Shown here: positions 290-52,635 of the stretch, one piece after another
Position numbering within the stretch: position 1 is the first letter of the stretch
How the letters are laid out: every line of letters starts with the position of its first letter
Virus record (IMG/VR): IMGVR_UViG_3300021138_000002
Span: 64,001 to 128,000 of that record
DNA length: 64,000 bases
Origin: a virus
Direction: 5' to 3' (one strand)
Notes under the pieces: generated by a model
The model's database searches: none
Told to the model about the DNA's origin: nothing
The model's input: only the letters and a program-made list of their open reading frames with translations
Made by a program: the position numbers and the translations under genes

Positions 290-718
290 ATGGTATGGCT
301 GTATGAAAACACTCAAATTGAAACCCTGCCCGAAGATTGTGTCGGCTTTGTTTACTTGATCACAAACAACGTAACCGGCAGAAGATATATTGGAAAAAAA
401 TTAGCAAAATTCAGCAAGACAACGTACAAAGTAGTAAAATTAAAGAACGGCAACAAAAAACGCAAGAAAATCAAGTCAAAAATAGATTCAGACTGGCAGA
501 CATACTATGGTAGCAACGATCAACTCAACCAAGACATCAAGAGCCTGGGTGCAGACAACTTCACAAGAGAAATATTATTTTATTGCAGATCACGAGCCGA
601 ATGCAGTTATATAGAAGCTAGAGAACAATTCAATCATAGAGTACTAGAATCTGACGCGTGGTACAACGGACAAATTGTCTGTCGTATACACGGTAGTCAC
701 ATAAAAAACAAAATCTAA
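290..718 (+). CDS. minimal GIY-YIG nuclease-domain protein
   Basis: GFVYLITN...RRYIGKK motif, YYGS, and a C-terminal E...YN; basic KKRKKIK insert; no NUMOD DNA-binding tail; TATAAT at 272-277 upstream. Confidence 0.8.
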   Translation: MVWLYENTQIETLPEDCVGFVYLITNNVTGRRYIGKKLAKFSKTTYKVVKLKNGNKKRKKIKSKIDSDWQTYYGSNDQLNQDIKSLGADNFTREILFYCRSRAECSYIEAREQFNHRVLESDAWYNGQIVCRIHGSHIKNKI

Positions 719-720
719 AC

Positions 721-1146
721 TTAGACAGGCAACTAACCGACCGTGTTTGATCGAGGCAGCTCGATCCCCGTTGAGGGCTGGTGTGATACCCAGCCCGGAT
801 AGAATGGACCAAGGTTCACTCGGGTGTCAAAGGCAAATGCTAACTCAAGGCAGCAAAGGATTTGGGCTCTGTGAAAAAGATACAACCCATGCTCGTAGGA
901 CTTGGATCGATAATCGGGTCACTAGGGTTCCGTTGATATGTGAAGCTAGAGTAGGGGGTACCGGTCAACCGCCTCCGTGTGTGCAAACACAATCTCTTTA
1001 GGATCGATGACAGCTCAACTCAGATAATGTGTGGAGAATCATATTCACCGTGTGTACGGTGAATTGTGACCGCGTAATCTAGATAATGCAGAAGAGAAAC
1101 AATCGTTTCTGAGCTTTAGCGAAAGAAACAGATCTCTAAGAGATCT
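721..1146 (+). ncRNA. candidate large structured non-coding RNA (strand inferred)
   Basis: About 420 nt without a credible ORF in a gene-dense genome; stems at 749-766, 775-796, 979-990 (GCAA tetraloop), 1043-1064, 1105-1129 and 1130-1146. Confidence 0.55.
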
Positions 1147-1481
1147 CAAAACTGATCAGGATAATCTCTCCAAAGAGCATGTTGTATGTCTCCAGCAACA
1201 AACTGATTGAAACTGCGATGTTTGTCTTCCAGTTCGCCTTTGAGTGGAGCAACACGACGGAATGCCTCATCGATCTGTGCCATGTTCTCAAACTCCATGA
1301 TGATAAACCATTCGGGCATGTCGGCTATGCTGCGGAATCCCATTTTGCATCTGGTAATCCTGTAAGATATCATTTTACCTTCATCAACCAGGTGTTGTAA
1401 AAAACTTTTCATGTTGTTGACAAAATCAAGGTCGCTGATGTCGCCTTCCTTGTTTGCCCATATTGTGTATAAGTCTGACAT
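1146..1481 (-). CDS. DUF6614-like small alpha/beta protein
   Basis: Y.IW....ISDLDFV...L.HL..EGK..SYRITR.K.G...EW.I.MEF...Q.D.AF pattern resembles DUF6614 as recalled. Confidence 0.5.
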   Translation of the reverse strand: MSDLYTIWANKEGDISDLDFVNNMKSFLQHLVDEGKMISYRITRCKMGFRSIADMPEWFIIMEFENMAQIDEAFRRVAPLKGELEDKHRSFNQFVAGDIQHALWRDYPDQF

Positions 1482-1915
1482 TATTGTAGTGGTCCTAGTA
1501 GTTCAAAGCCGTCAAGGCCCTGTTTGTACAAGTGTGCTTGATCCAGATAGAGATATTGGAATCCTCGATCTCGATAGATGGCACACTCGGTTTTTAAACT
1601 TTCTATGCCCAATCGCAACCGGGGATTGTGATAATTCCAGGCAAATTGAGCACACAAAGCATTGTGACTGTCGTAGCGTTTGATCATGCTCCAGGCTACC
1701 AGTCGTCCTTGGTCTCGATAGCCGATTAGATCTGTGTCTGGATCACGGTATTGGCTATCAAATATGGGCATCACACTAGCAAAGTGTTTGTAGATGCAAT
1801 AGGTTCTATAGATGTCGTTTAACAGGTCAATATCAGGATTGGTGATGTAGTACCAGTCCACCGTGGGCCGATAGGAGACCTTTTCAAGATTGATTCTGGC
1901 ATATTGATAGGTCAT
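1481..1915 (-). CDS. GNAT-fold protein resembling the C-terminal domain of aminoacyl-tRNA-protein transferases (ATE_C/Bpt)
   Basis: LIGYRDQGRLVAWS...LGIESLKTE...RGFQYLYL....YK resembles the ATE_C LG...L..I......YLYLGY...YK pattern. Confidence 0.5.
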   Translation of the reverse strand: MTYQYARINLEKVSYRPTVDWYYITNPDIDLLNDIYRTYCIYKHFASVMPIFDSQYRDPDTDLIGYRDQGRLVAWSMIKRYDSHNALCAQFAWNYHNPRLRLGIESLKTECAIYRDRGFQYLYLDQAHLYKQGLDGFELLGPLQ

Positions 1916-16605: not shown

Positions 16606-16704
16606 TAAATACTAATCAACGCAATGGTGCGTTTTATGCTGGTCGGGAAACCCAACAGCGTAGCAGAATAGAACCTGCATTGGACTTCTTTAAGGAGAAA
16701 ACAA
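16606..16704 (+). promoter_or_regulatory. late promoter followed by a structured ~90-nt 5' leader
   Basis: TAAATA, then three consecutive hairpins (16618-16633, 16635-16662, 16663-16678), then an AAGGAG SD. Confidence 0.5.
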
Positions 16705-17664
16705 ATGGGTCGTCCGTTAAAAATTAAAAAATCCACAACCAAGGATATTGGTTTTAATGACTTTGGTAATGTAGAAGTGCCTGTAATTCCGGTTGGCATA
16801 ACAAGCACAGAATTTTTGGGTGTGGTAGGTGGTGCCAATACTGGCATCGCAACTTCCAGCTATCCAGTAGTGCAAATCACAGCCAACGTGAATGGTCAGC
16901 AGGGCAGTGCTTACATCATTACACAAAAAGGTCAAACCAAATACTTGGTGGCCGGCGAAGATTCAGTTTACGCCAACAGTCTCACACAAGGTTTCAGCTA
17001 TCAAATCACCAATTTAGGTACAGGCACAAACTGGACACAGTTAGGCGCTGGTATCAACCCACAAGTGGGACAAGTTTTCACCTGTACTCTCCCAATTGGG
17101 TCCGGCACCGGAAACGGCACAGCCAGCGATTGCGGACAGTGCACCTTGGTAACCAGCGGCACACTTAGCTCTGGTCAAATGAACATGGTATTCAATGCCA
17201 ATGGTGGATCAGCTTACGCCAGCCGTCTCACAAACAAGTACATCTGGGATGCCTCAAATACTCGCTATGCTGTAAACTTCTTTGTGGCAGGTACCAATAC
17301 TCCGCTTGCTTTGGCCAACGTCACCATCACCGGCAACGCAGGCACATTCACTTGTTCTAACACCAATATTGGTCTAGGCGAATTGATCACAGTCACTGGC
17401 ACATTGAGCAACGTGGCCACTGGCACAATCTCTGGTTACAGCAACCCAACCACTTATTATGTGATCAACACTAACGGCGTCAATACCTTTACTTTGAGTA
17501 CCACAGAAGGCGGTGCCAATATCACTACTGGCACTGGTAATACTACTGGATTGACATTCAACACCATAAGTTCAACCACATTCAAGTCTGGAGCAGATCC
17601 GGTAACTTGGACCAATGGTACTGGCAATTTGATCCTGGCACAGGTTCAGAATTACACATCATAA
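16705..17664 (+). CDS. putative virion structural protein (fibre/collar associated)
   Basis: MGRPLK N-terminus, YIITQKG..KYLV, Thr/Gly/Asn-rich beta domains; strong SD and own terminator. Confidence 0.6.
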   Translation: MGRPLKIKKSTTKDIGFNDFGNVEVPVIPVGITSTEFLGVVGGANTGIATSSYPVVQITANVNGQQGSAYIITQKGQTKYLVAGEDSVYANSLTQGFSYQITNLGTGTNWTQLGAGINPQVGQVFTCTLPIGSGTGNGTASDCGQCTLVTSGTLSSGQMNMVFNANGGSAYASRLTNKYIWDASNTRYAVNFFVAGTNTPLALANVTITGNAGTFTCSNTNIGLGELITVTGTLSNVATGTISGYSNPTTYYVINTNGVNTFTLSTTEGGANITTGTGNTTGLTFNTISSTTFKSGADPVTWTNGTGNLILAQVQNYTS

Positions 17665-51945: not shown

Positions 51946-52635
51946 ATGACCCATTATCTCTATAAAAAAACTCACAAAGAAACTGGTTTAAAATATTTAG
52001 GAAAAACTATATCAAAAAATCCCTACAACTACAAGGGGTCTGGGGTATATTGGAAATATCATATCAAAAAATATGGATACAATGTAGAAACAGAAATATT
52101 AAAAGAATGTTCAACCGAAGAAGAACTCAAACACTGGGGTCAATATTATAGCAAGTTATGGAACGTTGTTGAAAGTGAAGAATGGGCAAATCTTAAACCC
52201 GAAGAAGGAAGTGGCGGAGGTATGGTAGCAGGATCTGCCTCTGCTCAAAAACATTCGTCTAAAATGATAGGACATCCAAACTGGTTAAAATCTCAATCGG
52301 AATCAGCTAAAAAATTAATCAAAAAAGCTCAACAAGAGCTTATATCTAAATTAACACCCGATGAATTAATTTCTCGTATGAAAAATTCTTGTTGTCGCCC
52401 CGACAGTTATACTCCTGAAAGATCTAAAAAGATTAGCGAGGCATTAACAGGAAGGACTCTTAGCGACGAACATAAAAAAAATGTAAGTATCGGAGGTTCT
52501 AAATACAAAAAATCTCTTACACAAGAAGAAAAAATCATCAAATACGGTCGAGCAAATAATGGAAAAACTTGGAAAATTATCAATGGTAAACGAGTTTGGA
52601 TGGAAAAAGGAGATCCAAAATTACAAAGAAATTAG
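51946..52635 (+). CDS. GIY-YIG (Seg-like) homing endonuclease with NUMOD3-like motif
   Basis: YLYKKTH..TGLKYLGKT...YKGSG..W, WANL.PE.G.GG and ALTGRTLSDEHKKNVS; AT-rich. Confidence 0.85.
   Translation: MTHYLYKKTHKETGLKYLGKTISKNPYNYKGSGVYWKYHIKKYGYNVETEILKECSTEEELKHWGQYYSKLWNVVESEEWANLKPEEGSGGGMVAGSASAQKHSSKMIGHPNWLKSQSESAKKLIKKAQQELISKLTPDELISRMKNSCCRPDSYTPERSKKISEALTGRTLSDEHKKNVSIGGSKYKKSLTQEEKIIKYGRANNGKTWKIINGKRVWMEKGDPKLQRN

What the first reader, a model, noticed from the sequence alone, without database searches (positions are those of the whole stretch)
290..1146. Minimal GIY-YIG nuclease directly followed by a ~420-nt highly structured RNA candidate: possible nuclease-RNA system
Seen: the 142-aa GIY-YIG protein has a catalytic domain and a Lys/Arg-rich insert but lacks the NUMOD-type DNA-binding tail carried by the homing enzyme at 51946. 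Right after its stop begins the longest non-coding stretch in the window. It is packed with stems: 721-750 (with G-U pairs), GATCGAG/CTCGATC 749-766, GGGCTGG/CCAGCCC 775-796, TGGG..CCCA ~863-889, a multibranch GGGGG/CCTCC plus GTGT-GCAA-ACAC domain ~948-997, ATTCACCGT/ACGGTGAAT 1043-1064, GTTTCT/AGAAAC 1105-1129 and AGATCTC/GAGATCT 1130-1146. Short repeats GGATCGAT and AGATAATG each occur twice. I could not match it to tRNA, tmRNA, RNase P or a group I/II intron core. Established: nucleases paired with structured RNAs exist (HEARO/omegaRNA with IscB), as do large orphan phage RNAs (ROOL, GOLLD). Inference: this is an undescribed large ncRNA, possibly forming a ribonucleoprotein with the nuclease. 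A replication origin or packaging signal is the alternative.
Basis: partly seen in the sequence, partly recalled or inferred. Interest (0 to 1): 0.8.

Follow-up and report, generated by a model that had tools for sequence, protein, structure and literature searches.

The report
Twin-box phage RNA beside nuclease gene
The gene-free gap behind a small nuclease gene of this uncultured freshwater T4-like giant phage encodes a real, doubly knotted non-coding RNA of about 410-430 bases, shared by well over a hundred related phages; it shows one short sequence twice, always changed in step, and nothing indicates that it guides the neighbouring nuclease.

Summary
A single-sequence fold is no better than shuffles (z -0.9), so the proof is comparative. 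Homologous elements lie in 70 of 80 loci found through the nuclease and in 91 of 120 found through an RNA core motif. My structure, with two pseudoknots, is 95.5% paired, and 39 of 89 pairs show compensatory changes (0/500 shuffles reach this).

The window's RNA matches no Rfam family. In sister phages the first third is Rfam Polynucleobacter-1 (RF01718); the shared 3' core is uncatalogued.

Two 12-13-nt "boxes" (1018-1030 and 1077-1089) are identical at eight positions in 115 of 115 distinct RNAs, although the letters differ between phages. The fixed differences between the boxes are all transitions, which fits one common RNA partner that pairs with G-U wobble. I did not find that partner.

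The nuclease-RNA complex idea is not supported:
- No nuclease residue tracks the box letters.
- The nuclease family occurs in 253 cultured phages, and the one neighbourhood I inspected (Melnitz) has no RNA.
- The RNA occurs behind a different nuclease, or behind none.
- Cargo genes can sit between the nuclease gene and the RNA.

This scan has already reported the same RNA family in more than 20 other genomes. Its function is unknown.

The parts
290..718 (+). GIY-YIG nuclease gene, 142 aa, catalytic domain only (SegE type); last protein gene of the rightward unit
   Evidence: Pfam PF19835, E 6e-33, full profile. More than 585 homologous stretches in viral contigs, mostly 142 aa. Homologues in 253 cultured phage records.
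719..1146 (+). Whole structured non-coding RNA ('twin-box RNA'), window-type variant
   Evidence: nhmmer homologues in 70/80 and 91/120 loci. Structure 95.5% paired, 39/89 pairs compensatory, 0/500 shuffles. No conserved ORF. One copy per genome in six genomes.
719..895 (+). Lineage-specific 5' domain: hairpin 749-766; helix 767-770/821-824 enclosing hairpin 775-796; hairpin 838-852; helices 859-861/891-893, 863-866/886-889 and 870-872/882-884. It takes the place of the Polynucleobacter-1 domain of sister RNAs.
   Evidence: Per-helix counts (helices 2-7 are 83-100% paired, each with compensatory pairs). RF01718 absent here at E<=10 but present in 12 of 16 sister loci.
896..924 (+). Hairpin Ha (896-905 with 914-924); its loop 906-913 is the 5' strand of pseudoknot 1
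   Evidence: Helix 8 is 99.5% paired. The equivalent outer helix in sisters is 95.8% paired with 5/5 pairs compensatory.
1001..1008 (+). 3' strand of pseudoknot 1 (pairs with 906-913); this explains the repeated GGATCGAT
   Evidence: Helix 9 is 95.4% paired with 4/8 pairs compensatory in the near group. Sisters: 96.2% paired, 4/5 compensatory.
932..976 (+). H-type pseudoknot core: GTTGA 932-936 pairs with TCAAC 965-969; GGGGG 954-958 pairs with CCTCC 972-976; near-invariant GGTACCGG...ACCGCC at 957-973
   Evidence: Pseudoknot 2 is invariant in the near group. In sisters it is 99.6% paired with U-A/C-G and G-C/A-U switches. Invariant columns are listed.
948..997 (+). Helix C (948-951 with 994-997) closing the core, with optional hairpin 979-990 inside it
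   Evidence: A-U to U-A switch, 13 vs 9 sequences. The equivalent sister helix is 92.7% paired with 5/5 pairs compensatory.
1018..1030 (+). Box 1 (A-CUC-x-GAU-y-A-y-G-n), lying in the loop region of a variable hairpin
   Evidence: The three top mutual-information pairs of the whole alignment are identities with box 2: 1022-1081, 1026-1085 and 1028-1087. 115/115 pairs are identical at positions -4 and 0..+6.
1043..1064 (+). Hairpin Hc between the two boxes
   Evidence: 98.5% paired in the near group; 90.7% in sisters with a different sequence.
1077..1089 (+). Box 2 (A-UCU-x-GAU-y-A-y-R-n), 59 nt after box 1
   Evidence: The fixed differences from box 1 are C/U, U/C and C/U at -3..-1, and mostly G/A at +7.
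1105..1129 (+). Hairpin with a tandem G-A internal loop (UGA / GAAA) and a 2-bp tip
   Evidence: 6/6 stem pairs compensatory, 94.7% paired.
1130..1146 (.). Terminal hairpin at the junction of convergent transcription units; terminator-like
   Evidence: Scored as a terminator on the - strand here. Homologues have other sequences that form the same hairpin, several followed by a T run on the + strand.
1146..1481 (-). Convergent DUF6614 gene (context only); first of the cassette that ends the baseplate-hub operon
   Evidence: Pfam PF20319, E 4.6e-22. The downstream flank varies between loci.

Best explanation
Shown: window 719-1146 (+) is a gene for a non-coding RNA of about 410-430 nt.

Position. 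It starts directly after the stop codon of whichever gene ends the rightward gp55-gp47-gp46 unit, which here is the GIY-YIG gene. It ends at a hairpin shared with the convergent baseplate-hub operon.

Fold. It has a lineage-specific 5' domain. A core conserved across the family follows: hairpin Ha, whose loop pairs with a downstream strand, plus an H-type pseudoknot around the near-invariant GGUACCGG...ACCGCC. Two boxes then flank hairpin Hc. A G-A-loop hairpin and a terminal hairpin close the RNA.

Inferred: the RNA works in its own right and not as the nuclease's cofactor. The knotted core would be a binding or catalytic centre. The two boxes would be twin recognition sites that pair with the same partner strand, predicted as 5'-U y3' U y1' AUC x' GGG U-3'. 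Every fixed difference between the boxes is a transition, which a G or U in the partner would tolerate. The RNA would thus bind two copies, or two sites, of one fast-changing nucleic acid.

The GIY-YIG gene is a conserved neighbour. It belongs to a family common in T4-like phages.
For: Reality and strand:
- Homologues occur in 70/80 nuclease-seeded loci and 91/120 RNA-seeded loci.
- 95.5% of cells are paired and 39/89 pairs are compensatory. 0/500 shuffles reach this, and slid controls give 34-43% paired.
- Sister set: 27/38 pairs compensatory, both pseudoknots 96-99.6% paired.
- Many invariant G-U pairs would be C-A on the other strand.
- There is no conserved ORF, and six genomes carry one copy each.

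Independence from the nuclease:
- Mutual information between nuclease residues and box letters is at background.
- The RNA follows PDDEXK_15 or other genes in 7/83 loci. GIY-YIG and PDDEXK_15 never occur together.
- Cargo ORFs lie between the nuclease gene and the RNA in L013 and L011.
- The nuclease family is present in 253 cultured phages, and the Melnitz locus has no RNA.

Twin boxes:
- 115/115 pairs are identical at eight positions, and the remaining differences are transitions only.
- There are 11 combinations of the three variable letters. A tree built without the box columns needs about 30, 20 and 15 changes for the three letters, and both boxes always change together.
Against: - No transcript data exist, so the ends, abundance and processing of the RNA are unknown.
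- No sigma-70-like promoter is predicted on the + strand between 200 and 1146. The RNA may therefore be only the 3' part of the operon transcript.
- The predicted partner strand was not found within 1.5 kb or in six genomes. There were 6 wobble hits against 2 in a control, none in homologous places.
- The change counts may be inflated by recombination, which moves both boxes together because they lie 59 nt apart.
- The 92% linkage to the nuclease gene still lacks a tested explanation.
Confidence: 0.65

Rival explanations
1. Nuclease-RNA system. The 142-aa GIY-YIG protein has no DNA-binding tail, so it would use the RNA as a targeting or activating subunit, as IscB or TnpB use their omega RNAs.
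For: - Tight linkage: 76 of 83 RNA loci have the gene upstream on the same strand, and nearly all nuclease loci with room downstream have the RNA.
- The protein is a catalytic domain only.
- In four loci a nuclease of another fold (PDDEXK_15) sits in the same place.
Against: - No protein residue covaries with the box letters.
- The family occurs in 253 cultured phage records, and the one neighbourhood I inspected (Melnitz) has no RNA.
- The RNA exists without any nuclease gene upstream (L109, L173) or ahead of it (L095).
- One to two kb of cargo genes are tolerated between the two.
- There is no variable guide at either end of the RNA.
- Divergence of protein and RNA is only loosely coupled (Mantel r 0.32).
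Confidence: 0.07
2. Homing explanation of the linkage. The GIY-YIG gene, and PDDEXK_15 elsewhere, would be a free-standing homing endonuclease parked next to its target. The target would be the highly conserved RNA gene, much as T4 SegB sits in the tRNA gene cluster (from my own knowledge of T4). This explains the adjacency only. It is compatible with the best explanation of what the RNA does.
For: - The protein belongs to the SegE family.
- Two unrelated nuclease folds occupy the same slot and are mutually exclusive.
- The RNA core offers a 17-nt near-invariant DNA target.
- The gene has a lower G+C content (0.36) than its surroundings (0.45-0.50).
Against: - The gene is present in 92% of loci at one fixed length, whereas homing genes are usually sporadic.
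- It has no DNA-binding domain.
- Homologues are kept in cyanophages and in Melnitz, where I found no such RNA.
Confidence: 0.15
3. Cis-acting 3' untranslated element. The structure would only stabilise, terminate or process the transcript of the upstream operon and would have no function in trans.
For: - It always begins at the stop codon of the last gene, whichever gene that is.
- No promoter of its own is predicted.
- It ends in a terminator-like hairpin.
- Weinberg et al. 2010 scored Polynucleobacter-1 'y' in their table column for cis-regulation.
Against: - About 400 nt with two pseudoknots, an invariant core and twin boxes is far more than is needed for stability or termination.
- It is conserved behind unrelated upstream genes.
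- The interchangeable 5' domains suggest a modular functional RNA.
Confidence: 0.1
4. DNA-level element. The region would be a replication origin whose transcript primes synthesis, or a recombination or protein-binding site. The two boxes would be direct-repeat binding or crossover sites, kept identical because one protein or one strand-exchange step reads both.
For: - Identity between repeats, rather than complementarity, is what iterons or crossover sites show.
- The element sits at a module boundary between convergent units.
- An earlier agent of this scan proposed pairing back onto the RNA's own DNA.
Against: - Selection clearly acts on the folded + strand RNA, as shown by G-U pairs and compensatory changes in about 17 helices.
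- The boxes keep fixed transition differences that gene conversion would erase and that a DNA duplex reader would have to tolerate.
- There are only two repeats, and no AT-rich unwinding tract was noted.
Confidence: 0.06

Closest known systems
Polynucleobacter-1 RNA motif (Rfam RF01718; Weinberg et al. 2010, PMC2864571)
   Same: It forms the first third of the sister RNAs in related phages, directly after the same nuclease gene (81-121 bits). Additional file 1 of the 2010 paper already notes that it lies downstream of a gene family with possible homology to P-SSM2 locus PSSM2_218. Its function is unknown.
   Different: The window's RNA does not match it even at E<=10 and has another 5' domain in its place. 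The model covers 141 nt and leaves out the conserved knotted core and the twin boxes. The 2010 authors detected it in no sequenced phage.
Large ornate bacterial and phage non-coding RNAs of unknown function (GOLLD, ROOL, HEARO, raiA, OLE; Rfam)
   Same: Size class, multiple pseudoknots, discovery by comparative genomics, occurrence in phages, and unknown biochemistry. HEARO is the precedent for a nuclease-linked RNA (from my own knowledge).
   Different: No sequence or structure match to any of them. None is known to me to carry two internal segments that covary to stay identical.
cow-rumen-2 RNA (Rfam RF02947)
   Same: A sister core aligns weakly to it: a hairpin with a UAGC-type loop, then CCGCC, then GG..ACAGGAYRACC..CC-GUAA (20 bits, E 0.28).
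   Different: The score is far below the gathering score of 66, and the match did not recur in a wider scan. It is a lead only.
T4 Seg endonucleases (SegE, SegB) and Pfam PF19835
   Same: The neighbouring protein matches the SegE GIY-YIG domain over its full length. From my own knowledge, SegB sits among structured RNA (tRNA) genes.
   Different: At 142 aa it has no DNA-binding region, and I found no evidence of mobility. It is kept at one length in hundreds of phages.

Membership tests
Polynucleobacter-1 RNA (RF01718) | Match to the Rfam covariance model at or above the gathering score (37 bits) | tested here: not met
   The window gives no match even at E<=10. Sister loci score 81-121 bits.
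Polynucleobacter-1 RNA (RF01718) | Position downstream of the GOS11034 / PSSM2_218-like gene family | tested here: inconclusive
   Both the window RNA and the sister RNAs follow the same GIY-YIG gene. tblastn finds homologues in 20 Prochlorococcus phage records. I did not check the identity of PSSM2_218 itself.
Twin-box RNA family (uncatalogued; defined here and in earlier scan reports) | Core H-type pseudoknot with GGUAYNGG-NNN-RCCGCC, and a hairpin loop pairing with a downstream strand | tested here: met
   Window 932-976 and 906-913/1001-1008.
Twin-box RNA family (uncatalogued; defined here and in earlier scan reports) | Two boxes A-YYY-x-GAU-y-A-y, about 50-60 nt apart, identical at the variable letters | tested here: met
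   Window 1018-1030 and 1077-1089, both with AGAUAAUG.
GIY-YIG nucleases, SegE type (PF19835) | Full-length match to the family profile | tested here: met
   E 6.1e-33, 114 bits against a cut-off of 25, profile positions 1-123 of 123.
GIY-YIG homing endonucleases | C-terminal DNA-binding module (NUMOD, helix-turn-helix or zinc finger) and sporadic, mobile distribution | tested here: not met
   No second domain in 142 aa. The gene is present in 76/83 RNA loci at a fixed position.
RNA-guided nuclease systems (IscB/HEARO or TnpB/omega RNA type) | A variable guide segment at one end of the RNA, and obligate co-occurrence of protein and RNA | tested here: not met
   No variable terminal segment. 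Each occurs without the other.
Group I / group II introns, RNase P RNA, tmRNA, tRNA | Match to the Rfam models or detection by ARAGORN | tested here: not met
   In addition, the flanking genes are convergent, so there is no split host gene.

The most novel reading that the evidence does not exclude
The twin boxes would be a programmable, bivalent recognition device. Two displayed copies of one 8-13-nt word would pair, with G-U tolerance, to a single partner nucleic acid that evolves quickly. This would let the knotted core act on, or bring together, two partner molecules or sites. It would be a mode of RNA-directed recognition not described for any phage RNA. A stranger variant that the data also allow is that the two boxes pair with each other in parallel through like-with-like base pairs, which would likewise force identity.
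Probability: 0.2. Interest if true: 0.85.

Novelty: new variant of a known kind. Interest (0 to 1): 0.6.

Why it matters
Large, intricately folded RNAs with invariant cores usually turn out to be ribozymes, ligand sensors or scaffolds of molecular machines. This one is carried by well over a hundred uncultured giant lake phages.

Only a 141-nt piece of a sister version is catalogued, and it has had no known function since 2010. The two boxes change many times yet are never found to differ. That is a clean evolutionary signal that something reads both.

For annotation, the practical result is that this gap should be called an RNA gene. The adjacent small GIY-YIG protein should not be presented as an RNA-guided nuclease.

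Tried and rejected
- Known RNA families: Rfam at gathering scores and at E<=10, and ARAGORN, gave nothing for 719-1146.
- Single-sequence folding: not better than shuffles on either strand.
- Coding, + strand: ORF 747-1001 is not conserved.
- Coding, - strand: the frame reading RRLTGTP is broken in most homologues.
- Promoter: none predicted on the + strand before the RNA.
- Expression: no RNA holder is listed among public runs.
- Partner of the boxes within 1.5 kb: there is no consistent exact 7-mer complement.
- Third box copy: the Polynucleobacter-1 domain holds none. The genomes hold no surplus same-sense boxes.
- Partner anywhere in six genomes: the 12-nt wobble search gave 6 hits against 2 in a reversed-box control, none in homologous places. 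The recurring GTTGTTTGGGT hits are the antisense of N-terminal 'NPNN' codons.
- Candidate partner at G000:49531: it lies in a variable, unconserved loop of a 508-aa gene.
- Exact predicted 12-mer at G003:143807: it lies inside a + strand ORF and is judged to be chance (about 0.02 per genome, six genomes tried).
- Ha 3' strand AUCGGGU as an internal partner: it does not covary with the boxes, judged by eye.
- cow-rumen-2 relationship: the match is weak and did not recur.
- Bacterial homes: my strict pattern found 7 contigs in genome bins (MAGs). All carry the phage gene order, so they look like phage contigs binned with bacteria. I could not reproduce the 'bacterial islands' reported by earlier agents, but my pattern may be too strict.
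- Cultured phages: blastn with both RNA types found nothing.
- Literature: no paper was found beyond Weinberg 2010.

Full report
**What is in the window.** The window lies in a 145-kb IMG/VR virus record that is about 42% complete. Related records reach 347 kb, and one of them has terminal repeats.
- ORF 290-718 (+) encodes a 142-aa protein that matches Pfam SegE_GIY-YIG over the whole profile and has no other domain.
- The next gene, DUF6614 at 1146-1481, lies on the minus strand.
- It is followed by a weakly ATE_C-like gene, an unnamed gene, and gp51- and gp26-like baseplate genes (T4_baseplate).
- So 719-1146 is a 428-nt gap between convergent transcription units.
- The nuclease gene has 0.36 G+C, against 0.45-0.50 around it.

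**Is the gap structured?** By itself the sequence folds no better than shuffled copies (z -0.89 on +, -1.07 on -). It matches no Rfam family, tRNA or tmRNA. The evidence is comparative.
- A scan of viral contigs for the nuclease gave more than 585 relatives, and 80 loci were kept. In 70 of these a homologue of the gap lies downstream on the same strand. The rest are mostly cut off by contig ends, carry an inserted gene or have a divergent copy, and two (L023, L076) have room downstream but no detectable copy.
- A scan seeded with an invariant RNA motif, which is blind to the nuclease, gave 91 RNA loci out of 120.
- In 22 close homologues, RNAalifold found 83 pairs, 32 of them with compensatory changes.
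- My own structure has two pseudoknots and one weak long-range helix. It is 95.5% paired, and 39 of 89 pairs are compensatory. No shuffle in 500 reaches this on four of five measures, and sliding the partners drops pairing to 34-43%.
- In 52 sister RNAs the 3' domain shows 27 of 38 compensatory pairs. Pseudoknot 1 is 96.2% paired and pseudoknot 2 is 99.6% paired.
- Many invariant G-U pairs fix the strand as +.
- No reading frame is conserved on either strand.

The repeated GGATCGAT is the two strands of pseudoknot 1.

**Anatomy in window coordinates.**

| Part | Coordinates |
|---|---|
| 5' domain (five helices) | 719-895 |
| Hairpin Ha | 896-924 |
| Pseudoknot 1 (Ha loop with downstream strand) | 906-913 with 1001-1008 |
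| Pseudoknot 2 | 932-936 with 965-969 |
| Helix B | 954-958 with 972-976 |
| Near-invariant GGUACCGG...ACCGCC | 957-973 |
| Helix C | 948-951 with 994-997 |
| Optional hairpin | 979-990 |
| Box 1 | 1018-1030 |
| Hairpin Hc | 1043-1064 |
| Box 2 | 1077-1089 |
| G-A-loop hairpin | 1105-1129 |
| Terminal hairpin | 1130-1146 |

The terminal hairpin scores as a terminator on the minus strand here. In several relatives it is followed by a T run on the plus strand. No sigma-70-like promoter is predicted on the + strand ahead of the RNA. In loci where extra genes follow the nuclease gene, the RNA starts at the stop codon of the last one. It is probably made as the end of the operon transcript, but this is not shown.

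**Relation to known RNAs.**
- In most sister loci, the 135-145 nt directly after the nuclease gene are Rfam Polynucleobacter-1 (81-121 bits), and the shared core follows them.
- The window and about 20 of the 91 RNA-seeded loci have a different 5' domain and no match to that model.
- The only paper is Weinberg et al. 2010. It lists the motif without a function. Its supplement notes that the motif lies downstream of a gene family resembling P-SSM2 locus PSSM2_218, and that it was seen in no sequenced phage.
- A weak resemblance of the core to cow-rumen-2 (20 bits) did not recur.
- The core and the boxes are uncatalogued as far as I could search.

**The twin boxes.**
- The three strongest mutual-information pairs in 118 distinct 3' domains are identities, not base pairs: 1022=1081, 1026=1085 and 1028=1087.
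- In 115 distinct box pairs, positions -4 and 0 to +6 (counted from x) are always the same in both boxes, although x, y1 and y3 vary between phages.
- On a tree built without the box columns, the three letters need at least 30, 20 and 15 changes, and both boxes always change together. Recombination may inflate these counts, because the boxes lie only 59 nt apart.
- A point that, judging from the summaries I saw, the earlier reports do not make: the boxes also differ in a fixed way. They read CUC against UCU at -3 to -1, and mostly G against A at +7. Every one of these differences is a transition.
- Gene conversion would erase such differences.
- One partner strand with G opposite the pyrimidines and U opposite the purine would pair with both boxes.
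- That predicts a partner 5'-U y3' U y1' AUC x' GGG U-3'.

- There is no exact complement within 1.5 kb and no third copy in the Polynucleobacter-1 domain.
- I fetched five further near-complete or partial genomes carrying four further box types. Each has one RNA copy.
- Sites able to pair with both boxes over 12 nt number 6, against 2 for reversed boxes, and none lie in homologous places.
- The one exact match to the predicted 12-mer lies inside a coding region of G003. A candidate in this genome lies in an unconserved protein loop.
- There are no surplus same-sense boxes either.

**Is the nuclease the partner?** The linkage is strong: 76 of 83 RNA loci with room upstream have the gene on the same strand. 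The other tests argue against a complex.
- No residue of the protein tracks the box letters. The maximum mutual information is 0.14 bit for x, below the permutation ceiling. It is 0.33 and 0.30 bit for y1 and y3, as shared ancestry would give, against about 1 bit between the boxes.
- Four loci carry a PDDEXK_15 nuclease in the same slot, never together with GIY-YIG. Three loci have neither upstream.
- Cargo genes of 1-2 kb can separate the nuclease gene and the RNA.
- Homologues of the nuclease occur in 253 cultured phage records, mostly cyanophages. In the closest cultured relative (Methylophilales phage Melnitz, 47% identity) there is no such RNA behind the gene.
- Protein and RNA divergence are only loosely coupled (Mantel r 0.32).

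A homing endonuclease parked beside a conserved RNA gene would explain the adjacency. Two nuclease folds sharing one slot fits that reading. The gene's constancy and its missing DNA-binding module do not fit it.

**Verdict.**
- The 'undescribed large RNA' reading is supported, with the qualification that a piece of the sister form is in Rfam.
- The ribonucleoprotein reading is not supported.
- The most likely account is a stand-alone functional RNA whose knotted core is the active or binding centre, and whose twin boxes read one partner twice. The first part is shown. The mechanism is inferred, and the partner is unknown.
- Earlier agents of this scan reached the same family-level conclusion in more than 20 other genomes. 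I reached it independently before reading them.
- I could not reproduce their report of bacterial islands: all seven hits in genome bins carry the phage gene order.

Noticed in passing
window 16617-16707 (+): A match to Rfam freshwater-2 RNA (RF02980, 62 bits against a gathering score of 49.9), ending in AAGGAGAAAACAAAUG, i.e. just upstream of a gene start.
   Followed up: no
L128, L156, L119, L107 (upstream of the RNA); L095 (downstream); L197: A 167-188-aa PDDEXK_15 (PF24608) nuclease gene occupies the slot next to the RNA in loci that lack the GIY-YIG gene. The two never occur together in the fetched loci, which looks like displacement of one nuclease by another.
   Followed up: partly
L013:3390-4418 and L011:3401-5221: Cargo ORFs of 342 aa, and of 347 plus 258 aa, lie between the nuclease gene and the RNA. 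They overlap the nuclease stop and end exactly where the RNA begins. The 258-aa one starts with a GCSYTAGSG motif reminiscent of SGNH hydrolases (not tested).
   Followed up: no
It aligns only weakly to the GIY-YIG domain (E 0.019) and lacks the Lys/Arg-rich segment.
   Followed up: partly
L173:3911-4304 and L173:5169-5240: A related phage contig carries a permuted tmRNA (RF04321, 92 bits) and a tRNA a few kb from its twin-box RNA.
   Followed up: no
L206, L207 (Haliscomenobacter MAG contigs of 148 and 183 kb); L209 ('Bifidobacterium' MAG contig of 57 kb): These contigs, filed under bacterial genome bins, carry the full phage gene order around the RNA (GIY-YIG, RNA, DUF6614 in two of them, gp51-like, gp26-like). 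They are probably giant-phage contigs binned with bacteria.
   Followed up: partly
sister RNAs, 5-25 nt after box 2 (e.g. L019, L024, L055): Many sister RNAs, but not the window, carry an optional short element (TCGCTTCGCTC or CACTTCGTTCG) between box 2 and the G-A-loop hairpin.
   Followed up: no
window 1484-1915 (-): The 144-aa protein matches the C-terminal domain of arginine-tRNA-protein transferase only weakly (ATE_C, E 0.0078, below the cut-off). This three-gene cassette is absent from many related loci, where the RNA abuts the gp51-like gene directly.
   Followed up: no
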